This document shows, piece by piece, positions 8,158 through 64,000 of a stretch of DNA of 64,000 nt; position 1 is the stretch's first letter; each line of letters starts with the position of its first letter. The notes under the pieces were generated by a model. That model made no database searches. It saw only the letters and a program-made list of their open reading frames with translations, and was not told the DNA's origin. The translations under genes were made by a program, and so were the position numbers. Source of the stretch: Planctomycetota bacterium (GTDB lineage: Bacteria; Planctomycetota; Planctomycetia; Pirellulales; Pirellulaceae); contig JAQBZB010000010.1 of assembly GCA_027622275.1 (NCBI GenBank), positions 2,598-66,597 of the forward strand, given 5' to 3'.

Positions 8158-8181
8158 CTCACTGTCCCGAAGGGATGGTGG

Positions 8182-8570
8182 GTAGTAGCCCTGGGCTTCA
8201 GCCCAGGGGTTTGCAGGATGAACGGCACTGAGCCCCGAAGGTGGCGACACAATGAGTTCGCTTTCCCTGGTGTCGCCGCCTTCGGGGCTTCGGAGTACTT
8301 CGTGACACGCTTCCCCGGCCTGAAGGCCGGGGCTACTAGCCCCCGTCGCTTCGCGACTTTGTAAACTGCCTGACGCTGCGGTGTTGCCGGTGCGGCAAGG
8401 TCGCGCTCGGCGAGCGAGACCTACTTTCGAAACAAAGCCTAGTTGGACAGCGCCACTTTCGCACGAACGGCAACAAATACAAGCTCGAAGCGCAAGCGAG
8501 TGTGTTTGCTGTAAGACACCCACTCGCTTGCGCTTCGAGCTTGTATTCCCGGAAAAGTGGCGCTGTCCAA
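8182..8570. repeat. Hairpin-rich intercistronic repeat block (nested palindromes)
   Basis: CCCTGGGCTTCAGCCCAGGG (8189-8208). AGCCCCGAAGGTGGCGACAC / GTGTCGCCGCCTTCGGGGCT (8231-8250 / 8270-8289). CCCCGGCCTGAAGGCCGGGG (8313-8332). A degenerate family-B copy lies at 8398-8424. A long hairpin has perfect 27-bp (8475-8501 / 8521-8547) and 17-bp (8443-8459 / 8554-8570) arms. Confidence 0.9.
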
Positions 8571-8593: not shown

Positions 8594-9733
8594 TCACGCA
8601 CGAGGCCGGCTGAATACTTCCGTACGCGTCTGCACGGCGGAGGACGTATCGTTGCCGGTCTGCAGCTTGATCCCGACGCTGGTCACGACATATTTGCGGG
8701 CCGCCCAGTCCAAGGCGCGTTGCAGCAAAGTCAGACCGTTGCTGTGCAAAGCGGAAAACGTAAAGTCGTTGCCCATCGACAACGTGATCCGCGGGCCGGC
8801 AGCGGCCGTGCCGTCTTGGAGGGCTCCGCCCGTTCCAATCACCGTCAGACTCGGAGTCGTGCCGCTGGAATCCTGCGTAAGAACTTGCAAGTCCGGTGCC
8901 AATGTCCCGCTCATCGTGACGATGGGTTGCGCTGACGTTGCCATCTGGACCGCACCTATCGCAAAGGCAGACGTTACATAATGAGTGTTGTCCGCGATCC
9001 TGATTTGCGTGCCCGTATACGCTCCGCCGCCAGCCGATGACAATTTCAAGTCATCGTGCAACGCTGCTTCCTCATTGACGATGCCCGCCGTGGCGTCGTT
9101 GAGCTTTGTGTTGAGATCGCTGGAGAGAATGTTCTCGGAGATGTAGATCGCATCCACGAGAGCCGCCATCGTATCCAGCTCGTTGTTGTCGCGTTTTGGC
9201 GAGACGGGCGTCACCGTATAACCCCAGCCTTCCATCGCCGATTTTTTGCCCGTGTCGTCCGTGTCCAAGTTGTATTCGTCCGGCACCACCATCAGCACGC
9301 GGCCCGAGATCGGATTCACCTGGGTCTTGTAATCCAGCGCAAAGCCGTAAACATTCTCGACCACGGCGATGGCCGTGCCGCCGTTATAGGTGCGCATCAG
9401 CGAACCGCCCGCGATCCCGGACCAGGAATAGCGGATCGATTCCACGTCTCCGTCGCCGTCCCGATCGGGCACGGTGAAACTAACGACGGTCGCGGTCCGC
9501 TGTTTGAAGTAAACCGCATCGCGCAGCTCGGCCACAATGTCTTCGAGCACAAAACTGCCTTCGACGGCGAGGGCCGTATCCGCATTCGTGTCCGCGGAAC
9601 GGATGGCCAAGAAGATGGCCGACATCATCCCCGCCAGCAGCAGACTTGCCGACGCCACACTGACGATCAATTCCGCCAGAGTGAATCCGCGACGCCTTGT
9701 TCTTGCCGGTACTAGCACCCTGCAGCTGCTCAT
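8594..9733 (-). CDS. Large pseudopilin (GspJ-like), prepilin-type N-terminal domain
   Basis: RRRG|FTLAELIVSVASASLLLAGMM. ATGA overlap with the upstream gene at 9730-9733. Confidence 0.75.
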   Translation of the reverse strand: MSSCRVLVPARTRRRGFTLAELIVSVASASLLLAGMMSAIFLAIRSADTNADTALAVEGSFVLEDIVAELRDAVYFKQRTATVVSFTVPDRDGDGDVESIRYSWSGIAGGSLMRTYNGGTAIAVVENVYGFALDYKTQVNPISGRVLMVVPDEYNLDTDDTGKKSAMEGWGYTVTPVSPKRDNNELDTMAALVDAIYISENILSSDLNTKLNDATAGIVNEEAALHDDLKLSSAGGGAYTGTQIRIADNTHYVTSAFAIGAVQMATSAQPIVTMSGTLAPDLQVLTQDSSGTTPSLTVIGTGGALQDGTAAAGPRITLSMGNDFTFSALHSNGLTLLQRALDWAARKYVVTSVGIKLQTGNDTSSAVQTRTEVFSRPRA

Positions 9734-24834: not shown

Positions 24835-24968
24835 TTAAGCGAACCTTCCCAAGTTGGGGCGTTTCGCTTAGAATGCAATTGCTAGGTCGCATCTTGGCGA
24901 AAGCCGAGTGTGATTGATTCCCTGGGGCCGTTGACGCGGCCTCAGGGAACGCTTTTGACGAGGATAAA

Positions 24969-25052
24969 CGGAAGGTAGGGGAATCGAACCCATCCCTGGC
25001 AGGACTCTGGCGTTTATAAGACGCCCCGCTGCACCAGCAGCAACTACCTCCC
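24969..25052 (-). tRNA. Non-canonical tRNA-like gene, 9/3 acceptor/T-stem architecture (allo-tRNA-like), anticodon UAU, long variable arm
   Basis: Fold done by hand on the minus strand. Acceptor stem is 9 bp (1-9/75-83, one G-U), followed by a 1-nt linker. D stem is 6 bp (TGCTGC/GCAGCG) with the 4-nt loop TGGT. Anticodon stem is GGCGT/ACGCC with loop CTTATAA. The variable arm is 17 nt with a 4-bp stem. T stem is GGG/CCC with loop TTCGATT. The discriminator is G and there is no encoded CCA. The 7/5 canonical fold leaves a T-C mismatch and extra linker bases. Confidence 0.7.
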
Positions 25053-25354
25053 GGTTCTAAAGAGGTCGCCTTGCCCCAGTCGGGCCGCTCGGTTGCAAGT
25101 ATGCGAGCCCGCTGGGACTGACCTTCTGCGCTCTGCCTAACGGCGACCACTTCGACAGAGCTTGAACTTCTTCTCATTTCCTCAGCCTCCAGTACGATTA
25201 CTTACTTCCGACGTCAGGCATTATCGCCGCCTAGGCAAAGCCGGTATCTACGCATTTTTTTACCACTTGTCCTTGTAGTGTAATGCTGGTGCAGTATTAA
25301 AGTAGAAGTAGAGTAGCAGTAAAACAGAAATAGATTAACTAAGGAGATTGCAAG

Positions 25355-60270: not shown

Positions 60271-60651
60271 TTACTTCATACGCAGCACAAAGATCTTGTG
60301 CGGCGCGTCACCATCCACGACATAGAGTTCTCCGGAGGCTGCCTCCAGTCCCTTGGCCAGGCCCAGCTTCACTCCGGGCACGCCTTCGACGTCCCAAACG
60401 CCGGCGTCTGCCTTTGCGTTCCAAGCCACTTTCACGATCTGTTTCGTATCGGTCAACACCCATCGGTAGGGCGCAGCGTAGCCCAGCCCGACGATGTTGC
60501 CTTGTTGGGACGTATAAACCGGCCGTGGATTGTTCCTCGCATTCAGCACCGCGTAATCCTGCTTCTCAAAATCGTATCGAACCCTGCGGCTGCTGAGTCT
60601 TGCTGCACGGAGTGCAGGCCAACAGGCCGAACTCAACGAAAACGACAACAA
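60271..60651 (-). CDS. Hypothetical protein; probable lipoprotein whose signal peptide lies in another frame
   Basis: The 126-aa ORF looks coding from ...VRYDFEKQDYAVL onward. ATG 60661 in a different frame encodes MRLVVVVFVEFGLLAC (lipobox) and stops after 31 codons. Confidence 0.4.
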   Translation of the reverse strand: MLSFSLSSACWPALRAARLSSRRVRYDFEKQDYAVLNARNNPRPVYTSQQGNIVGLGYAAPYRWVLTDTKQIVKVAWNAKADAGVWDVEGVPGVKLGLAKGLEAASGELYVVDGDAPHKIFVLRMK

Positions 60652-60756
60652 CTAAACGCATCGCCCCTACCCCAATCGATGAATCAGGATGGCACGATAA
60701 ACAGCCTTACAGCAATTGGACGAGAGGGCGATTGCTATGTCGAACAAACGGCAACA

Positions 60757-61971
60757 TTAATCCAAACTCCGGAGAAGTTCTTCGATGGACATCCGGAGCG
60801 CTGCCCCACTTAGGGTCTTCTCATCCATTCCCAGTTGATGCATCCAGTGCGCGGGATTCGGCGGGCCATCGCCCCATTCGGCGGTGGCACCGAACGCGAA
60901 ATAGACGTCCCATGCTAGTTCTCGATCGCGAGGCAACTCCACGACCTTTCCTAGCGCGAGCCCCAAACTCTTATCAGCATCCCAGAAGTGCGTCGCCCGC
61001 TCATTTGGGACTTGTCTGACCGCTTTGACCGCTGCTTGGCGATCGTCCTCTCTCAGGACAGGCGTCCAGACGACGTAGACCTTGAGTTTGTCGTGATTCA
61101 CCGCTTCAAGAATCTCCTTCTGCACCGCACGGGCACCGTTTTGGCACGGGCCTCACGTGGGCGAGAGAACAAGGACAAGCCTCACGTTTCCCACGTCACG
61201 ATTGAATGCTTCTTTCAGTTTCAGTTCGCCTTCCGACAACGCGATCAACTCGTCGCCCGTCTCCTTGGAGGCGACTTCGGCAAGTACGTCGTCCAACGAT
61301 TGGGCGAATGCATCCGGGCCTTGGAAATCTCGAAATCGACGAAGCTCTTCGCCCTCGGGGGACAGCAAACGGACATCGGGAAGGCCGACCGCGCCGTACT
61401 TGTTCGCAAGGGCCGGATGCTCGTCTGTATCCACCTTGATCAGGACGCACCGTTCCAAGAGCCGTGCGACCTTCTCGTCGGGGAACGTCTCTCGCAGCAT
61501 CCGCTGGCAGGGCACGCACCATGACGCAGTGAAGTCCAAGACGATGGGCTTGTTCTCGCTGCGTGCCTTGGCCAATGCTTCGCGAAAGAACGCCGGATCT
61601 TCGACAGCTTGAGCCGTGGCCTCGACGCGAGCCGTGAATCCTTCCTGTTTGATGGTAGCAATCAGGTCTGCTTCCGCGGCTTGCGACGCATCGTAATTGA
61701 CGACAAACTCGTCTCGTTCGAGGTCCATGCGGATCTCTCGAACAGCCTCAAGCCCTTCCAGGGCTTGTTTGACCGCGTTCGGTCACGACATTCACGTGCC
61801 GCCGCTTTTGCTCTTCTTGAAGCCGTCGATGTGCAGCGTCACCAGCTTCCAATCGGGCTTCGTCGCCGAGACCTTCTCGACTGGCTCGACTCTCGGAACC
61901 GTGGACTGATTGCAACCGAGAAGCGCAAACGCCGCGCACAATGTGGCAGTGGTCAAGAAATTGGATCGCAT
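60757..61971 (-). CDS. Candidate selenoprotein: lipoprotein with HMA domain (UxxU) + thioredoxin domain (CxxC) + thioredoxin-like domain (UxxC); three in-frame TGA
   Basis: A single frame runs from ATG 61971 to TAA 60757, interrupted only by TGA at 61792-61794, 61783-61785 and 61153-61155. Each TGA sits at a CxxC cysteine column. Lipobox ALLGC. A SECIS-like hairpin lies at 61749-61767. Confidence 0.65.
61749..61767 (-). promoter_or_regulatory. Candidate bacterial SECIS hairpin
   Basis: mRNA CAAGCCC-UGGAA-GGGCUUG has a perfect 7-bp stem and a GG-containing loop. It starts 15 nt after the second TGA and 24 nt after the first. Confidence 0.55.
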
Positions 61972-62004
61972 CGGTCGTCGTTCCTGCTTCGTTCTGGAAA
62001 GGAC

Positions 62005-62292
62005 TCAGTTAATCGGCTGTCCCAAGCCTGCTCCACGCAGCGTCGCTTCGTCCGGCCCTCGCCCCGTACAGCAGTCAGCAAGTTTACCATCGATAACAAC
62101 GGCAGGCACAGAGCGAATGCCCAGGCTCTTCGCCCGACTGGCGACGCTGGGATCGTGCATGTCCAACACCGTCACGTCGCACGATGGGCAGGCGATGTCC
62201 TTGACCGTTGAAATCGCGTCGTCACACGCTGGGCATCCCGCACTGAAAACTTCGATGGTGCGTTTCGTAGTCATCGCTGAGTTCTCCTTCAA
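62005..62292 (-). CDS. Small thioredoxin/glutaredoxin-fold protein (Thioredoxin_3-like)
   Basis: IEVFSAGCPACDDAISTVKDIACPSCDVTVLDM...RSVPAVVIDGKL. The start is possibly ATG 62274. Confidence 0.7.
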   Translation of the reverse strand: MKENSAMTTKRTIEVFSAGCPACDDAISTVKDIACPSCDVTVLDMHDPSVASRAKSLGIRSVPAVVIDGKLADCCTGRGPDEATLRGAGLGQPIN

Positions 62293-62327
62293 ATGAAATC
62301 GATTTGTTGGTCGGTTCGTTCCGCAAT

Positions 62328-62732
62328 CTATCCCTCCCTATCAAGTGCTTCCAGGATCGGGCACTCGCACGTTCCACCGCGACCGCGACACGCCTTCGTC
62401 ACTTTCACGAGTGCCTTCTTCATTCTTTGTAATGTCCGGATCTTGGCCTCGATATCATCGATCTTCTCGGCGGACCGCTTCTTCACGTCGGCACAGGTCG
62501 TCGTCGGATCGAGCCGCAACGAGAGCAATTCCTTGATCTCGTTGAGTGTGAAACCGAGTTCCTTGGCTCGCTTGATGAAACGCAGCCGGTCGACGACTTC
62601 CTCGTCGTATTGCCGATAGCCGGACGGCTTACGCTCGGGCACCGCCAGGAGTCCCTTTCGTTCGTAGAAGCGTACGGTTTCTACGCCAACGCCTGCACGC
62701 TTTGCAAGTTGTCCAACCGTCCATGAAGCCAT
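62328..62732 (-). CDS. merR: MerR-family metal-responsive regulator, Hg(II)-MerR-like Cys pattern
   Basis: N-terminal wHTH: TVGQLAKRAGVGVETVRFYERKGLL. Cys residues in TTTCADV, KACRG and GTCECP are spaced as in mercury MerR (about positions 80, 114 and 122-124). Confidence 0.8.
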   Translation of the reverse strand: MASWTVGQLAKRAGVGVETVRFYERKGLLAVPERKPSGYRQYDEEVVDRLRFIKRAKELGFTLNEIKELLSLRLDPTTTCADVKKRSAEKIDDIEAKIRTLQRMKKALVKVTKACRGRGGTCECPILEALDREG

Positions 62733-62785: not shown

Positions 62786-63018
62786 GACTGTTACCGCGGA
62801 AGCGGATCGCGACGACGTAGCCGCGTCTCGGCTGAGCGTTGATGAGACAATGATCATGATCGCGGGCCGACGATCCCACGCCGGGAGGGTGCGGGCGAAG
62901 AGATTTCTCGCACAGAACTTCTGCCGCCGCATCTGGCGCAGTAGGATTCAGTAGCGACTTGGCGTCGAACTCGCTAGATTACAAGCTCCTTCATCCCAGC
63001 CGACTCGGAGTGTCTGCC

Positions 63019-64000
63019 ATGCGCCCGTTTCTGACCCTAAGTGTTGTCGCGATAACCGTGGTGCTGGCGTCTTGCAGCCGCACTGAACCACTCTCGAAAA
63101 ACGGTCAAGGAAGTGAGGCGGTTGCGATAGCAGACGAACAGCGTGCCGATGACGCTCACCACGGCGTCGAGACGGACGTTCATGCGGCTGGTCATGCGCA
63201 GCACGAAGCTGCCAGCCAACATCAGGCCGATGGACATCACGCACATGGCGACGGTCACAATGAGCACCACCAAAAGATTGAAGCTGGCCACGCGACGAAT
63301 CCCGATCAACATGCGGGACATAGCGAGCACACGCATGCTCCCCATGACGACACGCACAAGACGGATCAGTCGGCGGTGACTTCAACGTCTCCCGTCTCCA
63401 AAGACCGGACCGCCTTGCAACTCTTTAAGCAACGGATCACGCCGATCATGCAGGCGACGAATCCGTCGAGTTGCAGCGAGTGCCACCTGAGCGGCGTGGA
63501 CTTGAAGCAGTACATCGGGCCGGATCAAGAGGCGACCTTCGCATCGCTTCGTATGTCGGGCCTGATCGACGTGGATGATCCCGATGCCTCAAAGATTCTC
63601 ACCTTCATCAATCGCCGACCAGAGAAACCGAGCCTGATCACTGACAAGATCCGCAAGGAAGAGTATGCGGCCTTCCGAGCCTGGATTCACGCCGCCGTGA
63701 AAGATCCCCAGGTCGCCGCCGCCGAAACATCGGATGCGGCCCTCGGGCCGACGATCCCGGACGAGGTGATCCGTCATGCACGCAAGGATCGAGTGCTGGC
63801 TTCGTTTATCGACAACATCTGGTCGGAAGTCGGCCGTTGCGCCGCGTGTCATTCACCGGATCGCAACCAGAAGCAAGTCGAAGAAAACGGCGAACAGGTT
63901 TCCTGGATCAAGCTAGGCGATCCGCAAGCGACGCTCGACTATATGCTGGAAGCTGAACTCTTCGACCTGACGGCACCGGAAGAGAGTCTGCTGTTGGCGA
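63019..64000 (+). CDS. Lipoprotein with His-rich tract and two CxxCH motifs (planctomycete cytochrome-c-like), 3' end outside the window
   Basis: Not in the ORF track (no stop in the window). Frame 1 from ATG 63019 reads MRPFLTLSVVAITVVLASC (lipobox), then ~70 aa with about 20 His (HHGVETDVHAAGHAQHE...HHAHGDGHNEHH...HSEHTHAPHDDTH), then CSECH and CAACH. Confidence 0.7.
   Translation, partial: MRPFLTLSVVAITVVLASCSRTEPLSKNGQGSEAVAIADEQRADDAHHGVETDVHAAGHAQHEAASQHQADGHHAHGDGHNEHHQKIEAGHATNPDQHAGHSEHTHAPHDDTHKTDQSAVTSTSPVSKDRTALQLFKQRITPIMQATNPSSCSECHLSGVDLKQYIGPDQEATFASLRMSGLIDVDDPDASKILTFINRRPEKPSLITDKIRKEEYAAFRAWIHAAVKDPQVAAAETSDAALGPTIPDEVIRHARKDRVLASFIDNIWSEVGRCAACHSPDRNQKQVEENGEQVSWIKLGDPQATLDYMLEAELFDLTAPEESLLLA

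What the first reader, a model, noticed from the sequence alone, without database searches (positions are those of the whole stretch)
60757..61971. Three in-frame TGA codons, all at CxxC cysteine positions: candidate multi-selenocysteine HMA-thioredoxin lipoprotein
The ORF track breaks this locus into 61153..61728 and 60757..61125 (same frame) and misses an upstream piece. From ATG 61971 one frame reads MRSNFLTTATLCAAFALLGC (lipobox) ... KLVTLHIDGFKKSKSGGT[TGA]MS[TGA]PNAVKQALEGLEAVREIRMDLERDEFVVNYDASQ...GFTARV. This is an HMA-type fold in which both Cys of the metal-binding CxxC loop are TGA. A normal thioredoxin site DFTASWCVPCQ follows. Next comes VRLVLVLSPT[TGA]GPCQNGARAVQKEILEAV..KLKVYVVW, the strand/CxxC/helix/strand of a second thioredoxin-like fold. 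Random decay would not place three nonsense codons exactly on redox/metal cysteine columns. A perfect hairpin CAAGCCC-UGGAA-GGGCUUG (61767..61749) starts 15 nt after the second TGA with GG in its loop, which is the geometry expected of a bacterial SECIS. After the third TGA only weaker hairpins are visible: 61135..61121 (bulged U, GUGC loop) and 61122..61107 (GGAGA loop). TGA is an ordinary stop elsewhere in the window, for example the ATGA overlaps at 9730, 38895 and 39128, so any recoding must be local. A UxxU metal-binding loop plus a UxxC site in one polypeptide would be an unusual selenoprotein architecture.
Basis: partly seen in the sequence, partly recalled or inferred. Interest (0 to 1): 0.9.

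Follow-up and report, generated by a model that had tools for sequence, protein, structure and literature searches.

The report
Triple-selenocysteine metal-binding lipoprotein gene
This is one real gene, split into three fragments by standard gene callers, for a secreted lipoprotein that most likely carries three selenocysteines (two in a metal-binding loop, one in a redox site) and sits in a mercury-type resistance cluster; it is a new fusion of selenoprotein types that are already known.

Summary
Observation confirmed. Window 61971..60757 (minus strand) is one 404-codon frame with in-frame TGAs at codons 60, 63 and 273. All three are conserved in every full-length relative found. The two HMA TGAs are also kept in Pirellulaceae and Acidobacteriota homologues of only 42-49% identity. 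TGA1 and TGA2 align with both Cys of the GMTCxxC loop of solved HMA proteins. TGA3 aligns with the first Cys of an SPTCxxC motif in a large, unannotated thioredoxin-fold family, in which 36 distinct genes carry TGA. Each site has a conserved downstream hairpin of SECIS geometry. For the first hairpin, codon identity at identical residues between clades is 97% in the hairpin core against 39% elsewhere. The second hairpin is present in Sec-form genes and absent from four Cys-form genes. TGA is a normal stop elsewhere in the window (11 of 25 long ORFs). Context: MerR with Hg-type Cys spacing here, and MerB, MerT-HMA and MerC-like genes beside close relatives. Best reading: a SelB/SECIS-recoded UxxU-HMA / CxxC-Trx / UxxC-Trx-like lipoprotein that handles Hg(II) or other soft metals. 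UxxU HMA selenoproteins are already catalogued (NF041115), so this is a new variant, not a new kind. Not tested: Sec machinery in the genome; Sec versus Cys (tRNA-ReC) insertion.

The parts
60757..61971 (-). Complete coding sequence of the three-TGA lipoprotein (404 codons plus TAA stop)
   Evidence: single frame; full-length orthologues L002, L003, L004 and L029 with the same three TGAs
61912..61971 (-). Lipoprotein signal peptide MRSNFLTTATLCAAFALLG|C (lipobox Cys20 at 61914..61912)
   Evidence: An N-terminal hydrophobic segment ending in [G]C is conserved in all orthologues. No dedicated predictor was run.
61627..61848 (-). HMA (ferredoxin-like metal-binding) domain with a UxxU loop
   Evidence: Pfam PF00403 39.2 bits against a cut-off of 24.8; alignment to ATP7B, CopA and MerP GMTCxxC
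61792..61794 (-). TGA1 (codon 60), first Cys column of the HMA CxxC loop
   Evidence: (TGA in 11 of 11 orthologues)
61783..61785 (-). TGA2 (codon 63), second Cys column of the HMA CxxC loop
61770..61785 (-). Invariant small helix UGACC / GGUCA (loop GAACGC) that includes TGA2; role unknown
   Evidence: 5 pairs, identical in 10 of 10 sequences. The closing G (61774) is a third codon position that stays G while the residue varies (A/R/G/Q/K/T).
61749..61767 (-). SECIS-1 hairpin CAAGCCC-UGGAA-GGGCUUG; apical loop 22 nt after TGA2 and 31 nt after TGA1
   Evidence: -17.1 kcal/mol, z = -3.95; 1 compensatory CG>GC change, 3 GC>GU; 97% against 39% codon identity; fits the bSECIS consensus quoted
61312..61593 (-). 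Thioredoxin domain with an ordinary WCVPC site (Cys152/Cys155 at 61518..61507), DsbD-gamma/DsbH-like
   Evidence: Pfam PF00085 56.1 bits, PF03190 52.3 bits; PDB hits to thioredoxins and DsbD C-terminal domains
60760..61245 (-). C-terminal thioredoxin-superfamily domain of an unannotated family, motif SPT-U-GP-C
   Evidence: 1,254 representative homologues; Cys forms read SPTCxxC; model pLDDT 96.4 with a TlpA/ResA/GPx/Sco-like fold; no Pfam or NCBIfam model
61153..61155 (-). TGA3 (codon 273), first Cys column of the C-terminal domain's CxxC
   Evidence: 36 distinct genes with TGA at this column
61122..61136 (-). SECIS-3 hairpin GUGCC-CGUGC-GGUGC; apical loop 21 nt after TGA3
   Evidence: across 32 genes the helix 20-24/30-34 is 95.6% paired, with Y21-R33 covarying (CG 22, UG 5, UA 3). 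It is absent from 4 Cys-form genes. In this window it is only -4.8 kcal/mol.
62005..62292 (-). Upstream small thioredoxin-like gene (CPAC; Thioredoxin_3 / MTH895-ArsE-like), ends in TGA
   Evidence: It is 83% identical to the C-terminal half of a MerC-like-TM-Trx_3 fusion in L002.
62328..62732 (-). MerR-family metal sensor with Cys80/Cys115/Cys124
   Evidence: TIGR02051 MerR 147.1 bits against a cut-off of 150.85, the best of the metal-sensor models. Cys spacing 35 and 9 read from the sequence. MerR-like genes are found next to the orthologue in 7 loci.

Best explanation
Window 61971..60757 (minus strand) is a single functional gene. Its three in-frame UGA codons are recoded locally, most likely to selenocysteine through SelB bound to hairpins in the coding sequence. 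One hairpin (61767..61749) lies at the right distance to serve both UGA60 and UGA63. A second (61136..61122) serves UGA273. The product is a lipid-anchored extracytoplasmic protein with three modules. The first is an HMA domain whose metal loop is U-M-S-U (a diselenolate site). The second is a DsbD-gamma-like thioredoxin domain with an ordinary CVPC site. The third is a TlpA/ResA/GPx-like thioredoxin-fold domain with a U-G-P-C site. The gene is probably co-transcribed with a small thioredoxin-like gene under a MerR-type sensor. Inferred function: capture of Hg(II), or another soft thiophilic metal such as Cu(I) or Ag(I), outside the cytoplasmic membrane on the two selenolates. The attached redox domains would keep the Sec/Cys pairs reduced or pass the metal on to a MerT-type importer. 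Shown here: one gene, conserved UGAs at Cys columns, conserved RNA hairpins, domain folds, mer-type neighbourhood. Inferred: Sec rather than Cys at the UGAs, one SECIS serving two UGAs, the metal identity and the division of labour between domains.
For: Conservation of the UGAs: all three are kept in L002, L003, L004 and L029 (77-83% identity). UGA60 and UGA63 are kept in L006, L007, L010, L011 (Planctomycetota) and L008, L009 (Acidobacteriota) at 42-49% identity, with the frame and flanks conserved (KSKSG[GA][TI]*M[SADE]*P). Cys columns: GMTCxxC of ATP7B, CopA, MerP; SPTCxxC. SECIS-1: -17.1 kcal/mol, z = -3.95. It has one compensatory and three GC>GU changes and no conserved break. Codon identity at identical residues between clades is 251/259 in the hairpin core against 1254/3189 in the rest of the gene. 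The loop U-G-G-A-A and spacings of 22 and 31 nt satisfy the published bSECIS consensus. SECIS-3: 32 distinct genes, 95.6% paired against 22-63% for slid controls, with Y21-R33 covariation. RNAalifold finds the same helix. Four Cys-form genes lack it, and two Sec-form outliers carry different hairpins at the same place. The loop starts 21-22 nt after the UGA in both SECIS elements. TGA is a normal stop in the window. Domains. Context: MerR. Next to orthologues there are a MerR-MerB fusion (PF03243, 113.9 bits), a CopZ-Zn-finger-MerT-HMA protein, a MerC-like-Trx_3 fusion, a DF-family-MerT-HMA protein, and CusB-like plus cupredoxin genes in Acidobacteriota. C-terminal-domain relatives are fused to MerT-like CC membrane segments and HMA domains (P0008, P0013, P0027, L061). 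Some Planctomycetes have selA, selB and selD (PMC4807772).
Against: No selA, selB, selC or selD gene and no tRNA-Sec was seen in the window or in any fetched locus, so the organism's capacity to insert Sec is unverified. No Rfam family matched. The hairpin after TGA3 is weak in this window: -4.8 kcal/mol, below the -7.5 kcal/mol consensus threshold, and the 60-nt fold is not better than shuffles. One SECIS serving two UGAs 9 nt apart has never been shown experimentally, and the purpose of the invariant UGACC/GGUCA helix is unexplained. The window's cluster lacks MerT, MerB and MerA, and the Acidobacteriota copies sit in Cu/Ag-type efflux clusters. The MerR scores just below its equivalog cut-off, with ZntR and CueR models close behind. 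The metal assignment is therefore soft.
Confidence: 0.8

Rival explanations
1. The UGAs are recoded through the same SelB/SECIS route, but one or more of them is read as cysteine by a tRNA-ReC (SelC*)-type tRNA. The mature protein would then carry CxxC, or a mix of Sec and Cys, at these sites.
For: PMC13582414 reports that tRNA-ReC-like genes are significantly enriched in genomes with UxxU-type hydrogenases. It notes that one or both UGAs may then be read as Cys. Nothing in the DNA distinguishes Sec from Cys insertion.
Against: No such tRNA was seen, but only the 64 kb window and short flanks could be searched. No orthologue of the HMA-Trx part with TGC/TGT was found. That would be odd if Cys were the intended residue, because a simple TGA>TGY change would remove the need for the recoding machinery.
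Confidence: 0.12
2. The recoding is as in the best explanation, but the protein is mainly a periplasmic thiol/selenol oxidoreductase (for example a disulfide reductase or peroxide-detoxifying relay for envelope proteins), or a Cu(I)/Ag(I) chaperone for efflux systems, and not a mercury-handling component.
For: Two of the three domains are thioredoxin folds. The nearest solved structures are DsbD-gamma, CcmG, ResA, TlpA, Sco and GPx7/8. L008 and L009 lie between a CusB-like adaptor and a cupredoxin-like protein, and L007 lies next to a TolC-like gene. The window's cluster has no MerT, MerA or MerB. Many stand-alone or protease-fused members of the C-terminal family have no metal gene nearby.
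Against: The closest relatives (L002, L003, L012, L006, L010) carry MerB, MerT-HMA and MerC-like genes adjacent to the orthologue. The window's regulator scores best against the MerR (Hg) model and has the Cys spacing of Hg-MerR (spacing from my own knowledge of Tn501 MerR). An HMA loop is a metal site, not a redox site.
Confidence: 0.3
3. The locus is a decaying pseudogene or three separate small genes, and the TGAs are genuine stops (or assembly errors).
For: Public annotation calls only fragments: the 59-aa 'hypothetical protein' O3C40_03115 and similar ones in other MAGs. One relative (L001) does look damaged, with frameshifts and an IS66 insertion.
Against: The same codons are TGA in independent assemblies from two phyla. 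Protein conservation continues in frame across every TGA. The HMA fold cannot be made from either fragment alone. Synonymous sites downstream are under RNA-level constraint. Thirty-six distinct genes of the C-terminal family carry TGA at the identical column.
Confidence: 0.02

Closest known systems
[quoted passage not shown]
   Same: HMA-type fold in which both Cys of the metal loop are replaced by Sec (UxxU); two UGAs three codons apart; presumed soft-metal ligand.
   Different: The window's domain scores 44.4 bits against a 95-bit cut-off. That is lower than an ordinary CxxC HMA domain of a MerT-HMA neighbour, which scores 63.3 bits. NF041115 is a 74-residue stand-alone model. Here the domain is the N-terminal module of a 404-residue lipoprotein fused to two thioredoxin-fold domains.
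MerP, periplasmic Hg(II)-binding protein of mer operons (TIGR02052; PDB 1afi); 'Mercuric transport protein MerP' selenoprotein noted in the GOS metagenome (PMC2398784)
   Same: Extracytoplasmic HMA domain in a MerR-controlled neighbourhood that, in close relatives, also holds MerT-like, MerC-like and MerB genes. Sequence match to 1afi at E = 8e-6.
   Different: 25.1 bits against a cut-off of 92.55. Lipid-anchored rather than soluble. Diselenolate instead of dithiolate. Carries two extra redox domains. No MerA or MerT in this window.
DsbD C-terminal (gamma) domain / DsbH / Thioredoxin_7 periplasmic reductases
   Same: The middle domain (WCVPC) matches PF03190, PF13899 and solved DsbD-gamma domains at about 1e-10.
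   Different: There is no DsbD membrane (beta) or alpha domain. NF001419 scores 62.9 bits against a cut-off of 330. The electron source is unknown.
UxxC thioredoxin-fold selenoproteins of metagenome surveys (e.g. 'Prx-like 3, pfam08534 e>0.001, UxxC' and 'Redoxin family protein PF08534, UxxC'; PMC2398784, PMC13188914)
   Same: The C-terminal domain is a Trx-superfamily fold with U at the first position of CxxC. It has many Sec and Cys forms and only a weak PF08534 similarity.
   Different: I could not obtain those reference sequences, so identity with either catalogued family is untested. No Pfam or NCBIfam model reaches its cut-off, and public names are 'hypothetical protein'.
UxxU-type Group 4 [NiFeSe] hydrogenases (PMC13582414)
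   Same: Two UGAs three codons apart in a metal-ligand CxxC motif, with a single conserved downstream SECIS proposed to serve both.
   Different: Unrelated protein fold and function. Cytoplasmic/membrane complex versus exported lipoprotein.

Membership tests
Bacterial selenoprotein gene (SelB/SECIS-recoded UGA) | In-frame UGA conserved among orthologues, with coding conservation on both sides | tested here: met
Bacterial selenoprotein gene (SelB/SECIS-recoded UGA) | UGA aligns with Cys in homologues (Sec/Cys pair) | tested here: met
   TGA1 and TGA2 against GMTCxxC of solved HMA proteins. TGA3 against SPTCxxC in P0006, P0008, P0013, P0019, P0020, P0026 and others. No Cys-form orthologue of the HMA-Trx part itself was found.
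Bacterial selenoprotein gene (SelB/SECIS-recoded UGA) | [quoted passage not shown] | tested here: met
   For TGA1 and TGA2: 7-8 bp stem, loop UGGAA, spacing 31 and 22 nt, -17.1 kcal/mol, conserved with a compensatory change
Bacterial selenoprotein gene (SelB/SECIS-recoded UGA) | Same bSECIS criteria for TGA3 | tested here: inconclusive
   The geometry fits: 5 bp stem, loop CGUGC with G second, spacing 21 nt. The element is conserved and Sec-form-specific across the family. In this window the hairpin is only -4.8 kcal/mol and not better than shuffles.
Bacterial selenoprotein gene (SelB/SECIS-recoded UGA) | selA, selB, selC (tRNA-Sec) and selD present in the genome | not testable with these tools
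   None was found in the 64 kb window or in the fetched loci, and the rest of the genome is not available. Some Planctomycetes do have the set (PMC4807772).
Bacterial selenoprotein gene (SelB/SECIS-recoded UGA) | Selenium actually incorporated (75Se labelling or MS) | not testable with these tools
   Requires an experiment
HMA domain (Pfam PF00403) | Score above the gathering threshold, with the metal loop at the beta1-alpha1 junction | tested here: met
   39.2 bits against 24.8 with U written as C; residue-level alignment
NF041115 UxxU_metal_bind (seleno)protein | Score at or above the curated cut-off (95 bits) | tested here: not met
   44.4 bits. It works like this family (UxxU HMA) but is not a member by the curated threshold.
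MerP (TIGR02052) | Score at or above the curated cut-off (92.55 bits) | tested here: not met
   25.1 bits
Thioredoxin (Pfam PF00085) | Score above the gathering threshold with a WCxxC active site | tested here: met
   56.1 bits against 23.5; WCVPC at residues 151-155
mer operon component | Genomic linkage to MerR plus Hg transport or transformation genes (MerT/P/C, MerA, MerB) | tested here: inconclusive
   The window has only a MerR-type regulator (147.1 against 150.85 bits) and a Trx_3 gene. Close relatives have MerR, MerC-like-Trx_3, MerR-MerB and MerT-HMA adjacent. Acidobacteriota copies are in Cus-like clusters. MerA was not seen in any locus.
Bacterial lipoprotein | Signal peptide ending in a lipobox [LVI][ASTVIL][GAS]C | tested here: met
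   ALLG|C at residues 16-20, and an equivalent G-C in all orthologues. Pattern judged by eye; no dedicated predictor was run.

The most novel reading that the evidence does not exclude
The protein is a 'seleno-MerP with its own maintenance crew'. It would be a lipid-anchored diselenolate Hg(II) trap whose two fused redox domains (one also Sec-dependent) keep the selenols reduced and hand the metal to MerT-type importers. That would make it a previously unrecognised, selenium-dependent component of mer systems in Planctomycetota and Acidobacteriota. In addition, a single SECIS hairpin, perhaps helped by the invariant UGACC/GGUCA helix that contains the second UGA, would direct SelB to two UGAs 9 nt apart. 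This gives a natural test case for how strict UGA-SECIS spacing really is in bacteria.
Probability: 0.35. Interest if true: 0.7.

Novelty: new variant of a known kind. Interest (0 to 1): 0.55.

Why it matters
Public annotation splits this gene into 'hypothetical' fragments of about 59, 190 and 120 residues in every MAG examined, so a whole family of exported multi-Sec proteins is invisible in databases. If the reading is right, selenium is used here as a metal ligand outside the cytoplasm and not as a redox catalyst. It would link selenium availability to mercury or soft-metal resistance in marine and soil Planctomycetota and Acidobacteriota. The UxxU site with one conserved hairpin, and the well-sampled SPT-U-xx-C family with a short conserved SECIS, are clean systems for studying SECIS spacing rules. 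They could also improve selenoprotein gene callers.

Tried and rejected
- Rfam at gathering and at permissive thresholds found no SECIS or other cis-element in 60600..62400. This is uninformative, because the bacterial SECIS is poorly modelled there.
- The first protein search with the full-length query was swamped by thioredoxin words and gave only two hits.
- A blind scan of the window for other in-frame TGAs at Cys motifs gave only noise in this 59% GC DNA, so it provides no independent evidence of other selenoprotein genes.
- tRNA scans of the window and of 39 loci found no tRNA-Sec.
- The extended lower stem CGGUC/GGCUG seen in the single-sequence fold is not conserved among orthologues.
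- The small UGACC/GGUCA hairpin was considered as a separate SECIS for TGA1 and rejected. Its loop starts only 11 nt after TGA1 and has no conserved G.
- Genome-wide TGA reassignment was rejected.
- Pseudogene and sequencing-error readings were rejected on comparative grounds.
Full report
OBSERVATION. On the minus strand, the frame that starts at ATG 61971 and ends at TAA 60759..60757 is open for 404 codons. The only interruptions are three TGAs, at 61794..61792 (codon 60), 61785..61783 (codon 63) and 61155..61153 (codon 273). With U written as C, Pfam finds an HMA domain (residues 58-112, 39.2 bits) and a thioredoxin domain (127-220, 56.1 bits). It finds no confident family for residues ~235-404. 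The window is 59% GC. TGA ends 11 of its 25 long non-overlapping ORFs, including the gene immediately upstream, so there is no general reassignment of TGA.

COMPARATIVE TEST OF THE TGAs. A scan of one genome per species found 24 related loci, and the metagenome scan added 34 more. Four loci are full three-domain orthologues with all three TGAs: L002 and L003 (two paralogues in one Planctomycetaceae MAG), L004 and L029. L005+L012 is a fifth, split over two contigs. Six loci are two-domain (HMA+Trx) orthologues of 42-49% identity that keep TGA1 and TGA2 within the motif KSKSG[GA][TI]*M[SADE]*P. These are L006 and L007, L010, L011 (three paralogues in one Pirellulaceae genome) from Planctomycetota, and L008 and L009 from Acidobacteriota. 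In a codon alignment both columns are TGA in 11 of 11 sequences. Protein databases hold only fragments of this family. About 30 distinct ~59-residue N-terminal pieces stop at TGA1, and a few middle pieces are present, all named 'hypothetical protein'. No Cys-form orthologue of the HMA-Trx part was found. One fragment (P0182; NCBI MAG, Planctomycetota, locus tag O3C40_03115, contig 67,648 nt) is identical to the window's first 59 residues. It is therefore probably the source of the window.

WHAT THE TGAs REPLACE. A sequence search of solved structures aligns GGT-U-MS-U-PNAVKQAL with GMTCQSCV... of ATP7B and CopA metal-binding domains and with MerP (1afi, E = 8e-6). Both TGAs therefore sit on the two metal-ligand Cys. 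An exhaustive search with the 131 residues after TGA3 found 1,254 representative homologues. Intact members read SPTCxxC at the TGA3 column (P0006, P0008, P0013, P0019, P0020, P0026, P0030, P0032, P0045, P0048, P0062), and one has Ser. Many hits of ~125 residues begin just after that column. The DNA of three of them shows SPT-TGA-xx-TGY. In the metagenome loci, 36 distinct genes carry TGA there. A model of a Cys-form member is confident (pLDDT 96.4) and has a thioredoxin-superfamily fold with the CxxC at the beta1-alpha1 junction. The nearest solved structures are GPx7/8, CcmG, ResA, TlpA and Sco, at TM ~0.55 and no more than 16% identity. Neither Pfam nor NCBIfam has a model that reaches its cut-off for this domain, and sources call its members 'hypothetical protein'.

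RNA ELEMENTS. The hairpin CAAGCCC-UGGAA-GGGCUUG lies at 61767..61749, after TGA2.
- It folds at -17.1 kcal/mol with z = -3.95.
- Across ten orthologues it is kept with one compensatory C-G>G-C change and three G-C>G-U changes.
- Between clades, identical residues use the identical codon in 251/259 cases in the hairpin core, against 1254/3189 in the rest of the gene. The third base is invariant in 8 of 9 consecutive codons, including one whose residue is only 27% conserved.
- The loop U-G-G-A-A fits that consensus. The spacing is 22 nt from TGA2 and 31 nt from TGA1, so one element is within range of both codons. A recent paper proposes the same arrangement for UxxU hydrogenases (PMC13582414).

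A second, invariant 5-bp helix, UGACC/GGUCA (61785..61781 with 61774..61770), contains TGA2. Its closing G is a third codon position that stays G while the residue changes. Its role is unexplained. It does not fit the SECIS consensus for TGA1.

After TGA3 the single-sequence fold is unimpressive (z = -0.5). The family tells a different story.
- In 32 distinct Sec-form genes the block GGY-GCC-CGK-GUG-GUG-C forms a hairpin at +20..+34. It is 95.6% paired, against 22-63% when the partner strand is slid.
- Y21-R33 covaries (CG 22, UG 5, UA 3). RNAalifold finds the same helix.
- Four Cys-form genes lack it, including one that keeps the residues G-A-R-V with other codons. Two Sec-form outliers carry different hairpins at the same place, one of them with the same CGUG loop.
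- Its loop starts 21 nt after the UGA, essentially the same geometry as SECIS-1.
- In this window the element is 61136..61122 (GUGCC-CGUGC-GGUGC) at -4.8 kcal/mol, which misses the energy criterion.

CONTEXT. Upstream on the same strand lie a small Thioredoxin_3/MTH895-ArsE-like gene (62292..62005, CPAC) and a MerR-family regulator (62732..62328). The regulator scores best against the Hg-MerR model (147.1 bits, cut-off 150.85; ZntR 137.7, CueR 134.5). Its Cys80/115/124 spacing (35 and 9 residues) equals that of Tn501 MerR Cys82/117/126. That comparison is from my own knowledge.

In the closest relatives (L002, L003, L012) the orthologue is preceded by MerR, a MerC-like membrane protein fused to the same Trx_3 domain, a MerR-MerB fusion (PF03243, 113.9 bits) and a CopZ-zinc-finger-MerT-HMA protein. 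L006 and L010 have MerT-HMA and MerR-like genes. L007 has TolC-like and MerR-like genes. The Acidobacteriota copies lie between a CusB-like adaptor and a cupredoxin-like protein. The window has a reduced set, with no MerB, no MerT-HMA and no MerC part. Relatives of the C-terminal domain are fused to MerT-like CC membrane segments, HMA domains and DF-family domains (P0008, P0013, P0027, L061). A Cys form sits next to an HMA-AhpC/Redoxin protein (L063).

INTERPRETATION. What is shown:
- one gene;
- UGAs conserved at Cys columns in two phyla;
- RNA hairpins with SECIS geometry under selection, and specific to the TGA forms;
- three recognisable domains behind a conserved lipobox;
- a soft-metal, mostly mer-type, neighbourhood.

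What is inferred: the UGAs are read as Sec by SelB; one hairpin serves two UGAs; and the protein captures Hg(II), or Cu(I)/Ag(I) in some lineages, on a diselenolate outside the cytoplasmic membrane, with the two thioredoxin-fold modules keeping the site reduced or relaying the metal.

Not tested: the Sec machinery of the genome (none in the window or in any fetched locus), and Sec versus Cys insertion (the tRNA-ReC caveat).

COMPARISON WITH WHAT IS KNOWN. [quoted passage not shown] A MerP selenoprotein was noted in the GOS data (PMC2398784). MerT, MerT/CopZ and MerB-like selenoproteins exist. Bacterial proteins with three Sec are listed. The window's HMA domain is not a member of NF041115 by its cut-off (44.4 against 95 bits), nor of MerP (25.1 against 92.55). 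The C-terminal family may correspond to loosely defined 'Prx-like 3 / Redoxin family, UxxC' entries of earlier surveys. I could not check this, so I do not claim the family as new. What appears undescribed is the lipoprotein fusion UxxU-HMA + CxxC-Trx (+ UxxC-Trx-like), its exclusive occurrence as the Sec form, and its place in mer-like clusters of Planctomycetota and Acidobacteriota. Literature searches found no description of it.

VERDICT. It is a new variant of a known kind, of moderate interest. It would be higher if Sec insertion at both UxxU codons from one SECIS and Hg binding were demonstrated.

Noticed in passing
window 24968..25053 (-): The only tRNA in the window is tRNA-Ile with anticodon UAU. 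PMC4807772 remarks that a single-copy tRNA-Ile(UAU) is a recurring feature of planctomycete genomes.
   Followed up: partly
window 8313..8358 (+) and 8163..8208 (-): Two matches above the gathering score to the Rfam sRNA family Acido-Lenti-1 (RF01687; 42.4 and 38.4 bits). They lie about 100 nt apart on opposite strands.
   Followed up: no
L001 5848..6714 (ENA ERZ25074695 ctg340265): A homologue that keeps both HMA TGAs but has frame shifts, including a 1-nt deletion inside the SECIS-1 3' arm (GGG>GG). It also loses the C-terminal domain next to IS66 transposase genes. It is either a decaying copy or a case of low-coverage assembly errors.
   Followed up: partly
window 61770..61785 (-): An invariant 5-bp helix UGACC/GGUCA contains TGA2. 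It is maintained through an invariant third-position G over six different codons. No explanation so far. It might mask UGA2 from RF2 or form a lower SECIS stem.
   Followed up: partly
window 62959..64000 (+), running off the window end: A divergently oriented gene for a His-rich lipoprotein-like protein with two CxxCH motifs (CSECH, CAACH). It is 67% identical to a 519-aa gene in the same position next to MerR in L002 and L012. It has no Pfam hit.
   Followed up: partly
window 60587..60682 (-) and 62005..62313 (-): The window's cluster looks like a reduced version of that in L002 and L003. Only the Trx_3 half of the MerC-like-Trx_3 fusion is present. Only a 32-residue stretch resembling the signal peptide of the downstream His-rich TlpA-like lipoprotein remains.
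   Followed up: partly
L002/L003 (JACKHM01) and L007/L010/L011 (OZ244209.1): The UxxU-HMA-Trx gene is present in two and three paralogous copies per genome, each in its own metal-type cluster.
   Followed up: no
P0027 (708 aa) and L063 146..2776: Further architectures of the C-terminal family. P0027 has two copies of the domain plus a CxxC HMA domain and a DF-family (seleno)protein domain. In L063 an aspartyl-protease-like fusion (P0006) lies directly after an HMA-AhpC/Redoxin protein and before a thioredoxin.
   Followed up: partly
L002 7413..8486 and L003 7332..8513: A single polypeptide fuses a MerR-type DNA-binding/metal-sensor domain to a MerB organomercurial-lyase domain (PF03243 113.9 bits; NF009710 176.1 bits against a cut-off of 193).
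   Followed up: partly
window 61792..61971 (-): Public annotation (NCBI MAG, locus tag O3C40_03115) records only the first 59 residues of this gene, as a hypothetical protein. Equivalent stubs are annotated in other MAGs (H6822_24160, H6822_02425).
   Followed up: yes
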